Assembly: GCF_009914755.1 (NCBI RefSeq)
Contig: NC_060930.1
From: the human T2T-CHM13v2.0 reference genome, Homo sapiens
Reading direction: 5' to 3' (one strand)
Length of the DNA stretch: 64,000 nucleotides
Positions 36,919 to 42,776 of this stretch are shown piece by piece. The translations under genes and the position numbers were made by a program. The notes under the pieces were generated by a model that was given only the letters and a program-made list of their open reading frames with translations, ran no database searches and was not told the DNA's origin. Position 1 is the stretch's first letter, and every line of letters starts with the position of its first letter.

Positions 36919-37197
36919 TTCTAGAGTATAGATAGGATGTTTAGTTTATCCCTTTGGTCAGCTGAATGGTGCAAGAAAAGAGTATACATAGCCTGTATCT
37001 AACTACAGTAGGTATTCAAGCTTATTATCCTGTCACAAGTCCATAAAGATGAAGAATGGATCATTTGAGAGTCATAGGGTCAAAATGGCCAGAATGCAAC
37101 TGTGATGTTGCACTGTGTAAAATCAGGTCAACTGTCCTGCAGGTCCTTGGGTGTCTATAAAATGAGACAATTCTTTTTTTTTTTTTTTTTTTTTTTT

Positions 37198-37585
37198 GTG
37201 AGCAACATGGCTGTTTATTTCACCTGGGTGCAGGCGGGCTGAGTCTGAAAAGAGAGTCAGCAAAGGGAGATAGGGGTGGGGCCGTTTTATAGGATTTGGG
37301 AAAGTAATGGAAAATTAGTCAAAGGGGGTTGTTCTCTGCTGGGCAGGGGCAGGGGTCACAAGGTGCTCAGTGGGGGAGCTTCTGAGCCAGGAGAAGGAAA
37401 TTCATGGGTTAATCACTCAGTTAAGGTCGGGCAGGAACAAATCACAATGGTGGAATGTCATCAGTTAAGACAGGGCAGGGCCTTTTCACTTCTTTTGTGA
37501 TTCTTCAGTTACTTCAGGCCATCTGGACGTATACGTGCAAGTCACAGGGGATGCGATGGCTTGGCTTGGGCTCAGAGGCCTGACA
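37198..37585 (-). promoter_or_regulatory. LTR7 U3-R with TATA box and polyA signal
   Basis: Begins TGTCAGGCCTCTGAGCCC. TATAAAA at 37285-37291 and AATAAA at 37214-37219 on the minus strand. Confidence 0.9.
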
Positions 37586-38726
37586 TTCCTGCCTTCTTAT
37601 ATTAATAAGAAAAATAAAACAAAATAGTGTTGAAGTGTTAGGCGGCAAAAATTTTTGGGGGTGGTATGGAGAGAGAATGGGCGATGTTTCTCAGGGCTGC
37701 TTCAAGCGGGATTAGGGGTGGTGTGGGAACCTAGAGTGGGACAGATTAAGCTGAAGGGAGATCTTGTGGTAAGGGGTGATATTCTGGGGTGGTTAGAAGA
37801 AACATTTGTCACATAGAATGATTAGTGATGGCCTGGATACGGTTTGTATGAATTGAAAAACTAAATGGAATAAGAGAAGGAGAAAAACAGGTATAAAAGG
37901 ACTAAGAATTGGGAGGACCTAGGACATCTAATTAGAGAGTGCCTACGGAGGTTCAGCATAGTCCTGCCAGCAAAGATTATTTATTTACTTCAAGAGTTAA
38001 GAGTGGCAGTTTGAGGATAGCACGAGGAGATATCAGTTGTGATGGCTTGGAGAAACAGTGTAAACCGGCAGTATAAACAAGAGCAGGGCATATATGAGTA
38101 GTTGAGAACAGTGAATAGGAGTATGACTAGACAGAAGATAGTAGGGATGACAAGTTATTTGGGGGCACAGTCGAAGTTGGTCTGGTGTCTGGAATGAGAC
38201 TGGGGCCTAATAAAAAGGAGCGTCTATACAGGAGCTCAAATGGGCTGTACCTTGTAGCATTCTGAGGACAGGTCTGACTTCTGAGAAGGGAAAGTGGTAA
38301 AAGTATTGTCCAGTCCTTTTTAAGTTGGTGGCTGAGCTTGGTGAGGTGTGTTTTTAATAGACCATTAGTCTGTCACTGAATACTAAGAGCCTGAAAAAAT
38401 GCTCGGCTGATTTGACTAATAAAGGCTGGTCTGTTATCAGACTGTATAGAGGTGGGAAGGCTAAACTGAGGAATTGTGTCTGACAGAAGAGAATAAATGA
38501 CTGTGGTGGCCTTCTCAGACCTTGTAGGAAAGGCCTCTAAAAGTATTAAAGCAGCGGCAGCCGCTGCAGGCAGACATGAGGGCTAGGCTAAAACAGTAAG
38601 GTCAAGTTGTTTGGACAGAAAGGCTACAGGGTGCGGTCCTGGCTCTTGTGTAAGAATTCTGACCGCACTAACCATGCCTAGGAAGGAAAGGAGTTGTTGT
38701 TTTGTAAGGGATTGAGGTTTGGGAGA

Positions 38727-39293
38727 TCAGCTGGACATGATCAGCAGGGACAGCACGTGTGTTTTTACGAGAATTATGTCGAGATAGGTAACAGATGAGG
38801 ATGAAATTTGGGCTTGACTGAAGTAATGGGGGTTGTCTGTGAAGCCTTGCGGCAGTGCAGCCCAGGTAATTTGCTGAGCCTGATGGGTGTCAGGGTCAGT
38901 GCAAGTGAAAGCGAAGAGAGGCTGGGATGACGGGTGCAAAGGAATAGTAAAGAAAGCACGTTTGAGATCCAGAACAGAATAATGGATTGTGGAGGGAGGT
39001 ATTGAGGATAGGAGAGTATATGGGTTTGGCACCATGGGGTGGATAGGCAAAACCATTTGGTTGATAAGGCATAGATCCTGAACTAACTTGTAAGGCTTGT
39101 CTGGTTTTAAGACAGGTAAAATGGGGGAATTGTAAGGAGAGTTTATAGGCTTTAAAAGGCCATGCTTTAGCAGGCGAGTGATAACAGGCTTTAATCCTTT
39201 CAAAGCATGCTGTGGGATGGGATATTGGCATTCATCGGGGTAAGGGTGATTAGGTTTTAATGAGATGGTAAGGGGTGCATGATCAGTCGCCAA
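38727..39293 (-). pseudogene. HERV-H pol (RT N-terminal) remnant
   Basis: SPYNSPILPV, VQDL, LDLKRAFF and LPQGF motifs, but no YxDD. Confidence 0.9.
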
Positions 39294-39512: not shown

Positions 39513-39822
39513 GGCCGGGCGCGGTGGCTCACGCCTGTAATCCCAGCACTTTGGGAGGCCGAGGCGGGCGGATCACGAGGTCAGGAGATCGAGACCATCC
39601 CGGCTAAAACGGTGAAACCCCGTCTCTACTAAAAATACAAAAAAAAATTAGCCGGGCGTAGTGGCGGGTGCCTGTAGTCCCAGCTACTGGGGAGGCTGAG
39701 GCAGGAGAATGGCGTGAACCCGGGAGGCGGAGCTTGCAGTGAGCCGAGATCCCGCCACTGCACTCCAGCCTGGGCGACAGAGCGAGACTCCGTCTCAAAA
39801 AAAAAAAAAAAAAAAAAAAAAA
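39513..39822 (+). mobile_element. AluYa5 inserted in HERV-H pro
   Basis: CCCGGCTAAAACGG, GCGTAGTGG and GAGATCCCGCC diagnostics. Pure A-tail and perfect TSD AAAAGAGTGTTGTC. Confidence 0.95.
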
Positions 39823-40072
39823 GAGTGTTGTCTAAGTTGGCACCAGAGTTGGGGAGTTTTAAGAGGTTTAGAAGCCTGGCTGTCAATACCCACAACAGTT
39901 ATGGAGGCAAGGGAAACAGGCCCTTGAAAAGAAGGTAATGTGGAGTGAGTAGCCTCAGTATTGATTAAGAAGGGGATGGACTTACCTTCCACTGTGAGAG
40001 TTACCCAAAGCTCGGCGTCCGTGGTGGTCTACGGGGCTTCCGAGGTGATCGGGCAGCGTCAGTCTTCAGCCG

Positions 40073-40399
40073 CTAAGCCCAGAAGGAGTCAGTCAGAGAC
40101 CCTTGGGCCAGAGTTCCAGGAGCTCTGGGAGTGGCTGCCAGGTGAGTCGAACAGTCCGATTTCCAGTGGGGTCCCGCACAGATGGGACACGGCTTAGGAG
40201 GAATCCTGGGCTGCAGGCATTCCTTGGCCTGGTGGTCAGATTTCTGGCACTTGTAGCAAACTCCTGGGGGAGGAGGTTCTAGAGGAATGCCTGGCCGCTG
40301 CGGTTCAGGCGTTTGGAAGTTCTTGTGTGCTGGAGATGTGGCTGGGGTTTGTCTCACAGTGGAGGCAAGGAATTGCAACTTTTTTCTATTATTGTACAC
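40073..40399 (-). pseudogene. HERV-H gag nucleocapsid remnant
   Basis: Two CCHC knuckles, CYKCQKSDHQAKEC and CPICAGPHWKSDC. Confidence 0.9.
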
Positions 40400-42776
40400 C
40401 TTGAAGGCGAGGTTAATTAAATACTGTTGTGGGGTTTGAGGGCCGGAATTTAATTTTTGGAGTTTTATTTAATGTCGGGAGCAGATTGGGTAATAAAATG
40501 TATATTGAGAAAAAGATGGCCTTTTGACCTTTTAGGGTCTAGGGCTGTAAAGTGTCTCAGGGTTGCTGCTGAACGAGCCATGAACTGGGCTGGGTTTTTA
40601 TATTTGATGAAAAAGAGCCTAAATGCTATCTGATTTGGGATAAAGAAAAAGGAGCATTAACCCTGACTATGTCTTTGGCTCCAGCCACCTTTTTAAGAGT
40701 AAATTGCTGGGCAGGTGGGGGAGGGCTAGTCAGAGAATGAAACTGTAAGTCCCACCAGGTGTGAGGAGGGGAGGGGATAAAAAGATTATAGGGTGGAGGA
40801 GCGGAGGCTGAGGAAGAATTGGGACCTAGCTCGGCCTGGCAAGGAGGGGAGAGGTCAGATGGGTCTGTAGAAAAGGAAGATTAGAAAGACTCAGCGACGC
40901 TTGGGGTTGGGACTGAGGGGACAGGCGGGAGGGAAAGAAGGAAGATTTGGGATGAGTTGCACTGGGCACAGAGACTAGGAAGGGACTGATGTGTAAAAGA
41001 ATGCCTGGATGTCAGGCACCTCAGATCATTTGCCCATTTTATGACAAGAATTATTTAGATCTTGTAGGATGGAAAAATTGCAAGTGCCATTTTCCGGCTA
41101 TTTGGAACTACTGTCGAGTTTGTACTGGGGTCAAGCGGCATTGAAGAAAATAAGGCATTTAGGTTTTAGGTCAGGTGTGAGTTGAAGAGGTTTTAAGTTT
41201 TTGAGAACACAGGCTAAGGGAGAAGAAGGAGGAATGGAAGGTGGAATCTTACCCATAGTGAAGGAGGCAAGCCCAGAGAAAAGAGTAGAGACATGGAGAA
41301 GGAGTTGGGGGTTCTTGCCCTCCAGAAAAGCAGAGAAGGGGTTGGGGCATGGAAATAAGGGATTGGGGCACAGAGATAAGAGGTCAGGGTGTGGAAATAA
41401 GGGATTGGGGTGCAGAGATAAGAGGTTGGGGTGTGGAAATAAGCGATTGGGGGGTTCTTGCCCCCTAGGGAAGCGGGACTTGCCGCTAAGGGTGAAGGAG
41501 AAGGGGTTGAGGGGTACTTGCCCCTGCCCCAGGAAAGGCAGAGAAGGGGTAGAGACAAGGAGAGAAGGGGTTGGGGTGCTTGCCTCTTCCCCAGAAAAGC
41601 AGGACTTGCCGCTAAGGGTGAAGGACCAAGGCAGGCGTCCCTGTGTGGTCTGACACCCTTGAAATGTGGATGTATAATCACAGAGGCATCCCTGCAATGA
41701 TTAAACACCAAGGGAAGCCTGCCTTCCCAGTCCGTGACTGGCGCCAGAGTTTTGGGTCCACGGATAAAACGTGTCTCTTTTGTCTCTACCAGAAAATGAA
41801 AGGAATTGAAATTAAGATAAGGGAGAGACTGAAGTGTAGCGCCAAGATTGAAAGGAGAAAGAGGTTGAGGGATAGTGAGGGAAGTTGGAGAAGAGAGTAA
41901 AAAGAGGCCGCTTACCGGATTTGAAATTGGTGAGATGTTGCTTGGGCTGGTCAGTCTGAGGACCTGAGGTCGTAGGCGGATCTTTCTCACGGAGCAAAGA
42001 GCAGGAGGACGGGGGATTGATCTCCCAAGGGAGGTCCCCCAATCCGAGTCACGACACCAAACTTCATGCACGTCTGTATGAAGAGACCACCAAACAGGCT
42101 TTGTGTGAGCAACATGGCTGTTTATTTCACCTGGGTGCAGGTGGGCTCAGTCTGAAAAGAGAGTCAGCCAAAAGGAGACAATTCTAATAACAATTCTATA
42201 GATTTAGTTCATCTTATAATTATTTATCCTCATTTCATATACAGATATATAGAATGCCTTACCTAGTGGATTACTCTTGATAAAAATGGGATTAAAATTT
42301 TAAGTCTTCTACTCTTGATTTGTATTTATGTAATATTTTTTACACTTTTTGATGTCTTTCCTTTAATGATCACACTGCACCTTAGTTGGAAGTACCTGGA
42401 AACTCTTAGTAAATATGTGTGTTTTGTTACTGAAGCCTTTTTTGGAAAGATTAGATATTACAATTATTTTGTCTCCTTTGGAATAGAGTCTATTTCACCT
42501 GCAAGATGTAGCAAAGGAGGAAGAGAATAGAGAGAAAAAGAGAAAATTAGAGGGGAATGGAGGTGGATCTTAAAGAAAATATAGCAGGAAATTTCTCTTG
42601 TCTGTGGTTCCTTCTTTGTTCATTCAACCAACATTTAAAAAAAAAAAAAAAAAAGACCTGTTCAAGAAATGAGTTGTAAACCCTATGGACTGTCCCCAAG
42701 GGGGCTGTCATGCATTGAATAACTTGTGATAAACGTTACCATGGCATCTAACACTTTGTCAGAAATCAGTCTTGTT

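What the first reader, a model, noticed from the sequence alone, without database searches (positions are those of the whole stretch)
37159..42185. HERV-H copied by L1 machinery: full-length unspliced viral RNA retrocopy, not a provirus
Seen: the 5' end starts at R with no U3. The 3' end stops at ...GCTCAC-A, ~16 nt after AATAAA, with 24 A and no U5. Flanks are a 16-bp TSD (aaaatgagacaattct / aaaaggagacaattct) at a TT/AGAA endonuclease-like site. The major splice donor (CCG|GTAAGC, ~41914) is unused. Established: integrase gives complete LTRs and short TSDs. L1-processed ERV copies are typical of HERV-W and reported mainly as spliced forms for HERV-H. This copy therefore records the TSS and polyA site of an ancestral germline or embryonic HERV-H transcript and has no 5' promoter.
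Basis: partly seen in the sequence, partly recalled or inferred. Interest (0 to 1): 0.75.

Follow-up and report, generated by a model that had tools for sequence, protein, structure and literature searches.

The report
L1-made retrocopy of HERV-H RNA
This 5-kb stretch is a copy of an unspliced HERV-H retroviral RNA that the LINE-1 machinery pasted into chromosome 6, and the same genome holds at least a dozen copies built the same way, so it is real but not unique.

Summary
On the minus strand, a HERV-H element runs from 42169 to 37175. It starts at the first base of the LTR7 R region, preceded by one untemplated G, with no U3. It ends at the R poly(A) site, 16 nt after AATAAA, with 23-24 A and no U5. 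A 16-bp target-site duplication (15/16 identical) flanks it at a TT/AGAA site. Two splice donors used by relatives are unused, and gag-NC, RT and integrase remnants lie in genomic order.

The best reading is L1 target-primed reverse transcription of a capped, polyadenylated, unspliced RNA from a deleted-type HERV-H.

It is not a rarity. A genome pattern search found 39 LTR7 R-ends followed directly by poly(A), against 0 in the control. Twelve of these were verified as R-start copies with duplications. Nine of those carry the same single untemplated G.

A 98%-identical truncated sibling lies 1.9 Mb away. No source provirus above 96% identity was seen.

The orthologous empty site could not be tested. 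Held reviews call HERV-W the only L1-mobilised HERV group. I found no catalogue of HERV-H copies, but two key papers were unavailable.

The parts
42170..42185 (-). Upstream copy of the target-site duplication (AGAATTGTCTCCTTTT in element orientation). The two flank bases before it are TT, giving a TT/AGAA L1-endonuclease-like site.
42169..42169 (-). Single untemplated G at the 5' end, read as the reverse-transcribed cap. The element's own 3' LTR has T at this position.
   Evidence: The same extra G is unambiguous in 9 of the 12 verified R-start copies, this element included.
42105..42168 (-). 5' R region, 64 nt (GCTGACTC...GTTGCTCAC), with no U3 before it.
42060..42104 (-). U5. It is present only at the 5' end.
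42042..42059 (-). Primer-binding site TGGTGTCGTGACTCGGAT. Its assignment to tRNA-His is recalled, not tested here.
   Evidence: conserved in 9 of 9 proviral copies
41910..41918 (-). Leader splice donor CCG|GTAAGC (boundary 41916|41915), not used.
41325..41452 (-). Tandem 21-nt repeats in the leader/pre-gag region. Copy number varies among HERV-H copies.
40217..40261 (-). Gag nucleocapsid zinc-knuckle remnant (Pfam zf-CCHC, E 9e-4, just under the curated cut-off).
   Evidence: stops read as X
39980..39990 (-). Second donor GGAAG|GTAAGT (boundary 39986|39985). A spliced chr22 retrocopy used it; here it is unused.
39513..39818 (+). Later Alu insertion, antisense to the element, with a perfect 14-bp duplication (39499-39512 and 39819-39832). 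It is absent from the 98% sibling copy.
38817..38999 (-). Reverse-transcriptase remnant (Pfam RVT_1, E 2.8e-7; 61 aa matching profile positions 64-131 of 205).
38367..38537 (-). Weak integrase-core remnant (Pfam rve, E 0.0064, below the cut-off).
37730..37735 (-). Splice acceptor CTCTAG|G (boundary 37731|37730). The spliced chr22 copy used it; here it is unused.
37262..37588 (-). U3 of the 3' LTR, complete, with TATAAAA at 37292-37286, 31 nt before the R start. The whole U3-R is 96% identical to the closest LTRs in the genome.
37198..37261 (-). 3' R region, 64 nt, with AATAAA at 37219-37214. It ends at the cleavage site 16 nt later, and no U5 follows.
37175..37197 (-). Poly(A) tail of 23 A, or 24 with the first base of the duplication.
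37159..37174 (-). Downstream copy of the target-site duplication (AGAATTGTCTCATTTT in element orientation).

Best explanation
An RNA was transcribed from a deleted-type HERV-H provirus elsewhere in the genome. It began at the LTR7 cap site (the G of GCTGACTC, 31 nt after TATAAAA). It was left unspliced and was cleaved and polyadenylated at the R poly(A) site of the 3' LTR.

L1 ORF2p nicked chromosome 6 at a TT/AGAA site and primed on the poly(A) tail. It reverse-transcribed the whole RNA, including the cap, which gave the extra G. Second-strand cleavage 16 bp away produced the duplication.

The result is a copy with the layout R-U5-internal-U3-R-(A)n. It has no promoter at its 5' end and a complete but displaced promoter in its 3' LTR.

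What is shown: the anatomy, and the recurrence of the same anatomy at other loci. What is inferred: that L1 did it, that the G is the cap, and that the event took place in germline or early embryo.
For: - The 5' end lies exactly at the R start, where 9 of 9 proviral LTRs continue into U3.
- The 3' end lies at the poly(A) site, with 23-24 A and no U5.
- The duplication is 16 bp, 15/16 identical, at TT/AGAA.
- The element is colinear with 9 of 9 proviral 5' halves across the leader donor.
- A second donor/acceptor pair, used by a chr22 copy, is intact and unused here.
- Gag-NC, RT and IN remnants lie in genomic order.

Class evidence:
- The pattern 'R end plus 10 A' (up to 2 mismatches) gives 39 genome hits against 0 for the reversed control.
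- All 30 hits that I viewed have LTR7-type R before the tail.
- 12 of the 39 were verified as R-start copies with duplications of about 12-16 bp. They are this one, chr5, two on chr8, chr10, two on chr16, chr22, chr11, chr7, chr2, and an R-only 64-nt copy on chr14.
- 5 more are 5'-truncated with duplications, one of them with a 5' inversion.
- The untemplated G is unambiguous in 9 of the 12, ambiguous in 1, TG in 1 and absent in 1.
- The 3' LTRs of 9 of 9 copies checked have C or T at that place, never G.
- A published L1 5' transduction that starts in an LTR7Y also carries one untemplated G, and its authors read it as the cap (PMC6425141, passages).
Against: - No orthologous empty site could be examined, because no primate genomes are on hand. 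Insertion rather than loss is therefore inferred from anatomy alone.
- The duplication has one mismatch.
- The end of the upstream duplication copy (TCTCCTTTT) resembles the last U3 bases (TCTCCCTT). A microhomology-guided 5' junction a few bases off the true RNA end is not strictly excluded for this single locus.
- No source provirus was found. The best other copies are 95-96% identical, and only 40 candidates are scored per search.
- L1 involvement rests on hallmarks, not on an assay.
Confidence: 0.93

Rival explanations
1. It is an ordinary integrase-made provirus that later lost U3 of the 5' LTR and U5 of the 3' LTR by two deletions. The A run and the flanking repeat would then be coincidences.
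For: HERV-H copies are full of deletions; one search finds only fragments of RT and IN. No empty-site test was possible.
Against: - Two independent deletions would have to end exactly at the cap site and at the poly(A) site.
- They would also have to add 23 A and sit inside a 16-bp repeat.
- Eleven other loci show the same ends with unrelated flanks.
- Integrase duplications are short, 4-6 bp (established knowledge, recalled).
Confidence: 0.02
2. It is an L1-made retrocopy, but its 5' end is not the transcription start. On this reading the RNA began further upstream, by read-through or at another start. The cDNA was then cut short or joined by microhomology at this point.
For: The end of the upstream duplication copy (TCTCCTTTT) resembles the last U3 bases (TCTCCCTT) in the alignment. 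5' truncation is common in this class.
Against: - Twelve copies with unrelated flanks start at the same nucleotide.
- Nine have an untemplated G that their own LTRs do not encode.
- The start is 31 nt after TATAAAA.
- A 64-nt R-only copy has the same two ends.
Confidence: 0.03
3. It is a DNA-level duplicate (segmental duplication or gene conversion) of another retrocopy, for example the 98% copy 1.9 Mb away, and not an independent RNA-mediated insertion.
For: A 2.4-kb stretch at G000:C6:79763335-79765768 is 97.8% identical. That is closer than any other copy seen.
Against: - That copy is shorter at both ends and has its own 15-bp duplication and different flanks.
- It shares no flank with this window.
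- This element has its own duplication and poly(A) tail.
Confidence: 0.01

Closest known systems
HERV-W processed pseudogenes made by L1 (Pavlicek 2002, recalled and seen only as a citation; Grandi 2016 PMC5016936 and Grandi & Tramontano 2017 PMC5537654, passages and abstract)
   Same: The layout is R-U5...U3-R-(A)n. The copies lack 5' U3 and 3' U5, have L1-type duplications and insertion sites, and show frequent 5' truncation.
   Different: The family differs: LTR7/HERV-H with its His-type primer site. These copies are a small minority of HERV-H, whereas pseudogenes are the majority of HERV-W. [quoted passage not shown]
L1 insertion Ref_Chr1_p31.1a, with a 5' transduction that starts in a HERV-H LTR7Y (PMC6425141, passages)
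   Same: An RNA begun at a HERV-H LTR start site was copied by L1. A single untemplated G at the 5' end is read as the cap.
   Different: There the HERV-H part is spliced to exons and to an L1 that supplies the 3' end. Here the whole RNA is HERV-H, unspliced, and uses its own poly(A) site.
HERV-K(HML-2) locus 2q32.1, an L1-retrotransposed rec-like mRNA (PMC3590776, passages)
   Same: It is an ERV transcript copied by L1, with a poly(A) stretch and a 13-bp duplication.
   Different: It belongs to a different family and comes from a spliced subgenomic RNA.
Spliced HERV-H genomic copies (Goodchild 1995; not held, known only through passages in PMC11998498 and PMC3590776)
   Same: They are HERV-H sequences amplified through an RNA.
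   Different: They are described as found among cloned proviruses, so they were probably made in retroviral fashion with LTRs. The present copy is unspliced and L1-type. A spliced L1-type copy does exist on chr22.
Ordinary mRNA processed pseudogenes, for example RPSAP72 at 24422-24855 in this window (from the supplied annotation)
   Same: Same mechanism and hallmarks.
   Different: The template here is a retroviral genomic-type RNA that brings a complete LTR promoter (U3-R) at its 3' end.

Membership tests
L1-mediated retrocopy (processed pseudogene) | Begins at the transcription start of the parent RNA, or is 5'-truncated, and lacks the promoter | tested here: met
   Starts at the R start, where 9 of 9 proviral LTRs have U3. 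The start is 31 nt after the TATAAAA box as seen in its own 3' LTR.
L1-mediated retrocopy (processed pseudogene) | Ends at the poly(A) site with an A tail | tested here: met
   Ends 16 nt after AATAAA, followed by 23-24 A and no U5.
L1-mediated retrocopy (processed pseudogene) | Target-site duplication of roughly 7-20 bp | tested here: met
   16 bp, 15/16 identical, directly at both ends. Background rate measured.
L1-mediated retrocopy (processed pseudogene) | Insertion at a TT/AAAA-like endonuclease site | tested here: met
   TT/AGAA, read from the flank and the duplication.
L1-mediated retrocopy (processed pseudogene) | Introns removed | tested here: not met
   Two donors and one acceptor that relatives use are intact and unused. 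For a retrovirus the unspliced RNA is itself a mature exported RNA, so this does not argue against the mechanism.
L1-mediated retrocopy (processed pseudogene) | Empty orthologous site with one copy of the duplicated sequence in an outgroup | not testable with these tools
HERV-H (LTR7-type LTR with HERVH internal part) | LTR and internal sequence homologous to the family | tested here: met
91-96% identity to the best 39-40 copies listed in each search of the 5', internal and LTR parts, and 85-98% in the search of the 3' part. No Dfam or RepeatMasker check was possible.
HERV-H (LTR7-type LTR with HERVH internal part) | Primer-binding site for tRNA-His | not tested
   An 18-nt site is conserved at 42042-42059 and in 9 of 9 proviral copies. 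It was not compared with a tRNA-His gene.
HERV-H (LTR7-type LTR with HERVH internal part) | Gag-pro-pol order of coding remnants | tested here: met
   zf-CCHC, then RVT_1, then weak rve, in that order on the minus strand.
Integrase-made provirus | Two complete LTRs (U3-R-U5) | tested here: not met
   The 5' LTR lacks U3 and the 3' LTR lacks U5.
Integrase-made provirus | Short (4-6 bp) duplication and no A tail | tested here: not met
   The duplication is 16 bp and there are 23-24 A. The 4-6 bp figure is recalled.

The most novel reading that the evidence does not exclude
HERV-H RNA was a recurrent template for L1 in the hominoid germline or early embryo. It left a family of at least three dozen retrocopies: full-length unspliced, spliced, 5'-truncated, inverted, and even R-only.

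This family has not been catalogued, and it contradicts the textbook line that HERV-W is the only L1-mobilised HERV group.

The 5' ends, with their cap-derived G, give a nucleotide-exact fossil record of the LTR7 start site and poly(A) site. Some 'proviruses' used in HERV-H promoter and dating studies would then be promoterless retrocopies.
Probability: 0.4. Interest if true: 0.5.

Novelty: new member of a known kind. Interest (0 to 1): 0.4.

Why it matters
For this locus alone, little. It is a dead, promoterless copy with a later Alu inside it.

For the family it has three uses.
1. HERV-H sets used for LTR-LTR dating, for counting full-length against solo LTRs, or for 5'-LTR promoter studies will include such copies. 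They have no 5' U3, and their two R regions are not a clock.
2. The shared start nucleotide with a cap-derived G, and the shared cleavage site, map the HERV-H transcription unit as it was used in cells that pass DNA to the next generation. That fits HERV-H expression in pluripotent cells, where L1 is also active.
3. It qualifies the statement in held reviews that only HERV-W was mobilised by L1.

Tried and rejected
- Pavlicek 2002 (PMC155283) is not held, and Goodchild 1995 is not in the library. Whether either lists L1-type HERV-H copies stays open.
- Eight literature searches and passages from 11 papers gave no catalogue of L1-made HERV-H copies. They gave only the general remark that RetroTector 'proviruses' may include processed pseudogenes that were not separated out (PMC4724089).
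I used coordinates from pattern searches and short fetches instead, so 22 of the 39 hits remain unclassified.
- I suspected that G000:C1:81910452 was the published LTR7Y-L1 transduction. It is not: it is unspliced HERV-H for at least 790 nt.
- Looking for the source provirus gave nothing above 96% apart from the truncated sibling.
- The LTR7 subfamily (7, 7B, 7C, 7Y) could not be named without Dfam. I can say only that U3 is of the TATAAAA type and closest to the 5' LTRs at C4:24305296 and C23:3173821.
- A paper with nanoCAGE data (PMC9911396) gave no base-level LTR7 start site in its main text.
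Full report
**What is there.** The element lies on the minus strand. Read 5' to 3' it has these parts:
- flank ending in TT;
- the 16-bp sequence AGAATTGTCTCCTTTT (42185-42170);
- one G (42169);
- a 64-nt R region (42168-42105), then U5 (42104-42060);
- an 18-nt primer-binding site (42059-42042);
- a leader with a consensus donor CCG|GTAAGC (41916|41915) and a block of 21-nt tandem repeats (41325-41452);
- about 4 kb of internal sequence, interrupted by an antisense Alu (39513-39818) that has its own perfect 14-bp duplication;
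- a 3' LTR with complete U3 (37588-37262) and R (37261-37198);
- 23 A (37197-37175);
- the 16-bp sequence again, with one difference (AGAATTGTCTCATTTT, 37174-37159).

The two R regions form the 72-nt direct repeat found, 94% identical.

**Checking the ends.** I searched the window's own assembly with the first 270 nt of the element. I then aligned the nine best other loci around the start point.
- In 9 of 9, GCTGACTC is preceded by U3, with a TATA-type box about 31 nt upstream.
- In this element it is preceded by unrelated flank plus one extra G.
- The element's own 3' LTR has T, not G, before GCTGACTC, and TATAAAA 31 nt upstream.
- At the other end, the 3' LTR stops at GTTGCTCAC, 16 nt after AATAAA. 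The A run follows directly, whereas the 5' R continues into U5.

For the duplication, 354 of 1.18e8 16-mer pairs 4-6 kb apart in the window match at 15/16 or better, and nearly all of them lie in Alu or R repeats. A match sitting exactly at both ends is therefore not chance.

**Unspliced, and from a deleted-type genome.**
- The element is colinear with 9 of 9 proviral 5' halves across the leader donor, to at least element position 1585 and beyond 1680 in 8 of them. Only tandem-repeat copy number varies. In one of the nine (L009) the part beyond about position 970 was not matched.
- A second donor (GGAAG|GTAAGT, 39986|39985) and an acceptor (CTCTAG|G, 37731|37730) are intact here. They are joined in a chr22 retrocopy, which was therefore made from a spliced RNA.
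- With stops read as X, Pfam finds a gag zinc knuckle (40261-40217, E 9e-4), a piece of reverse transcriptase (38999-38817, E 2.8e-7) and a weak integrase core (38537-38367, E 0.0064), in that order.
- Only fragments of pol remain, and no env domain was detected.
- Without the Alu, the copy is about 4.66 kb from R start to cleavage site.

It is therefore full-length with respect to its RNA, and that RNA came from a defective, deleted HERV-H.

**How common it is.** A pattern made of the last 19 nt of R plus ten A (up to 2 mismatches) gives 39 hits in the assembly and 0 for the reversed control. All 30 loci that I viewed carry LTR7-type R before the tail. Three chr9 hits share one flank and are duplicates of each other.

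A second pattern, G plus the first 25 nt of R, gives 59 hits and 0 in the control. I fetched 60 nt upstream of the 56 hits I did not already hold. Of the 59:
- 24 have no U3 upstream; this includes this element, and two of the 24 are chr7 duplicates of each other;
- 33 are LTRs with a G variant at that place;
- 2 are odd: one has an inverted R-U5 next to it, and one has a small duplication.

Eight 5' ends pair with a poly(A) hit on the same strand within 10 kb. I extended three further poly(A) loci upstream, and all three also start at R.

Twelve of the 39 poly(A) hits are therefore verified as R-start copies with duplications of about 12-16 bp:
- this element;
- chr5:12427135-12431405;
- chr8:116942189-116946654;
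- chr8:89865152-89870470;
- chr10:110452712-110458212;
- chr16:68767026-68773000;
- chr16:76427708-76437309;
- chr22:28203622-28206449, the spliced one;
- chr11, chr7 and chr2;
- a 64-nt R-only copy on chr14.

Five more are 5'-truncated with duplications, at 170 nt, 411 nt, 1.4 kb, 1.5 kb, and one with a 5' inversion of the twin-priming kind. A sixth is doubtful.

Two U3 types occur among the copies, TATAAAA and TATAAGAAC, so more than one source was copied.

**The extra G.** Among the 12 verified copies:
- 9 have a single G between the duplication and GCTGACTC that neither the target nor the copy's own 3' LTR encodes;
- 1 is ambiguous, because the target has a G there;
- 1 has TG;
- 1 has nothing.

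The 3' LTRs of 9 of 9 copies checked have C or T at that place. Eight of the twelve were found through the G-containing pattern, so the fraction is biased upward. The other four (chr14, chr11, chr7, chr2) were found without it and give G, G, TG and none.

A published L1 5' transduction starting in an LTR7Y shows the same single untemplated G, and its authors read it as the cap (PMC6425141, passages). I read the G here the same way. It places the start at the G of GCTGACTC.

**Relatives and age.**
- Other copies are at most 96% identical over the 5' end, the internal parts and the LTR. Only 40 candidates are scored per search.
- The exception is a 2.4-kb stretch 1.9 Mb away on the same chromosome (G000:C6:79763335-79765768). 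It is 97.8% identical and lacks the Alu.
- That stretch starts at element position 1927 and stops 95 nt into U3, at an A-rich spot. It has a perfect 15-bp duplication (TAAAACTCATCCTTC), no A tail, and no shared flank.
- I read it as a second, doubly truncated L1-type copy from the same or a very close source.
- The two copies differ at 49 of 2431 aligned sites. Polarised with two other copies, 18 changes are on this element, 15 on the sibling, and 16 are undecided.
- About 1% per branch suggests an age of very roughly 8-20 million years, depending on the rate assumed. This is an inference, not a measurement.

**What it does now.**
- The 5' end has no promoter.
- The 3' LTR keeps U3 with its TATA box, and R with its poly(A) signal. 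On its own it could only make the 64-nt R RNA. The chr14 R-only copy shows that such RNAs existed.
- According to the supplied annotation, a RefSeq enhancer (37910-38527) lies in the pol-to-LTR part. The first exon of a predicted lncRNA (39331-39420, plus strand) lies antisense in the pol remnant. Its end is followed by GT at 39421-39422.

**Literature.**
- A HERV-H/HERV-W study excluded L1 pseudogenes only for HERV-W (PMC6298018, passage).
- PMC3590776 says retrotransposed HERV-H and HERV-W elements 'have been described before', citing Goodchild 1995 and Pavlicek 2002.
- PMC11998498 describes Goodchild's spliced form as found among cloned proviruses.

I could read neither original, and no supplements were consulted. 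The claim that the class is uncatalogued rests on searches only.

**Verdict.** The locus is an ordinary member of a real but little-described class, L1-made HERV-H retrocopies. The empty-site test remains to be done.

Noticed in passing
window 39513-39818 (+), duplications at 39499-39512 and 39819-39832: A young-looking Alu sits inside the element, antisense to it. It has a perfect 14-bp duplication and a pure A tail of 20-plus bases. It is absent from the 98% sibling copy. By recall it looks like an AluY/Ya-type; this was not tested.
   Followed up: partly
L099 136-2569 = G000:C6:79763335-79765768: A doubly truncated sibling copy, 97.8% identical, with a perfect 15-bp duplication TAAAACTCATCCTTC. 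It has no A tail, and its 3' end lies at an internal A-rich site of U3. This may be internal priming by L1.
   Followed up: partly
L017 about 1442-1570 = G000:C14, around 33487229: A retrocopy of the R region alone: G plus 62 nt (a 2-nt deletion relative to the usual 64-nt R) plus A tail, with the duplication AAAACTCTGTTCT. It came from an RNA that started and was polyadenylated within one LTR.
   Followed up: yes
L096/L018 = G000:C22:28203622-28206449: An R-start, poly(A)-ended copy with a duplication. In it, GGAAG|GTAAGT (window 39986|39985) is joined to CTCTAG|G (window 37731|37730). It is therefore an L1-type copy of a spliced HERV-H RNA.
   Followed up: yes
L040 = G000:C12, around 81954712: A 5'-truncated copy whose first 277 nt are inverted (element positions 4078-3801), with the duplication GAAATCTATTA[A/G]TA. 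This is the twin-priming pattern of L1.
   Followed up: partly
window 39331-39420 (+) and 37910-38527: The predicted lncRNA LOC112267962 starts antisense inside the pol remnant, and its first exon ends before GT at 39421. A RefSeq enhancer lies in the 3' internal part. Both facts are from the supplied annotation.
   Followed up: no
loci L043-L098: 33 LTR7-type LTRs carry G instead of C or T just before GCTGACTC. Several are both LTRs of one provirus, for example C9:35022781 and C9:35028410.
   Followed up: no
L054 = G000:C3:90149483-90149553: An R start directly preceded by an inverted R-U5: head-to-head HERV-H ends. Unexplained.
   Followed up: no
L025-L027 (chr9) and L069/L070 (chr7): The same retrocopy junction with the same flank occurs three times on chr9 and twice on chr7. 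These retrocopies have been caught up in later segmental duplications.
   Followed up: no
L047 (G000:C1:108506609-679) and L021 (G000:C5, around 23082954): Two loci on different chromosomes share a 12-nt flank string (ATAAGAAACATG) next to their HERV-H junctions. This may be chance.
   Followed up: no
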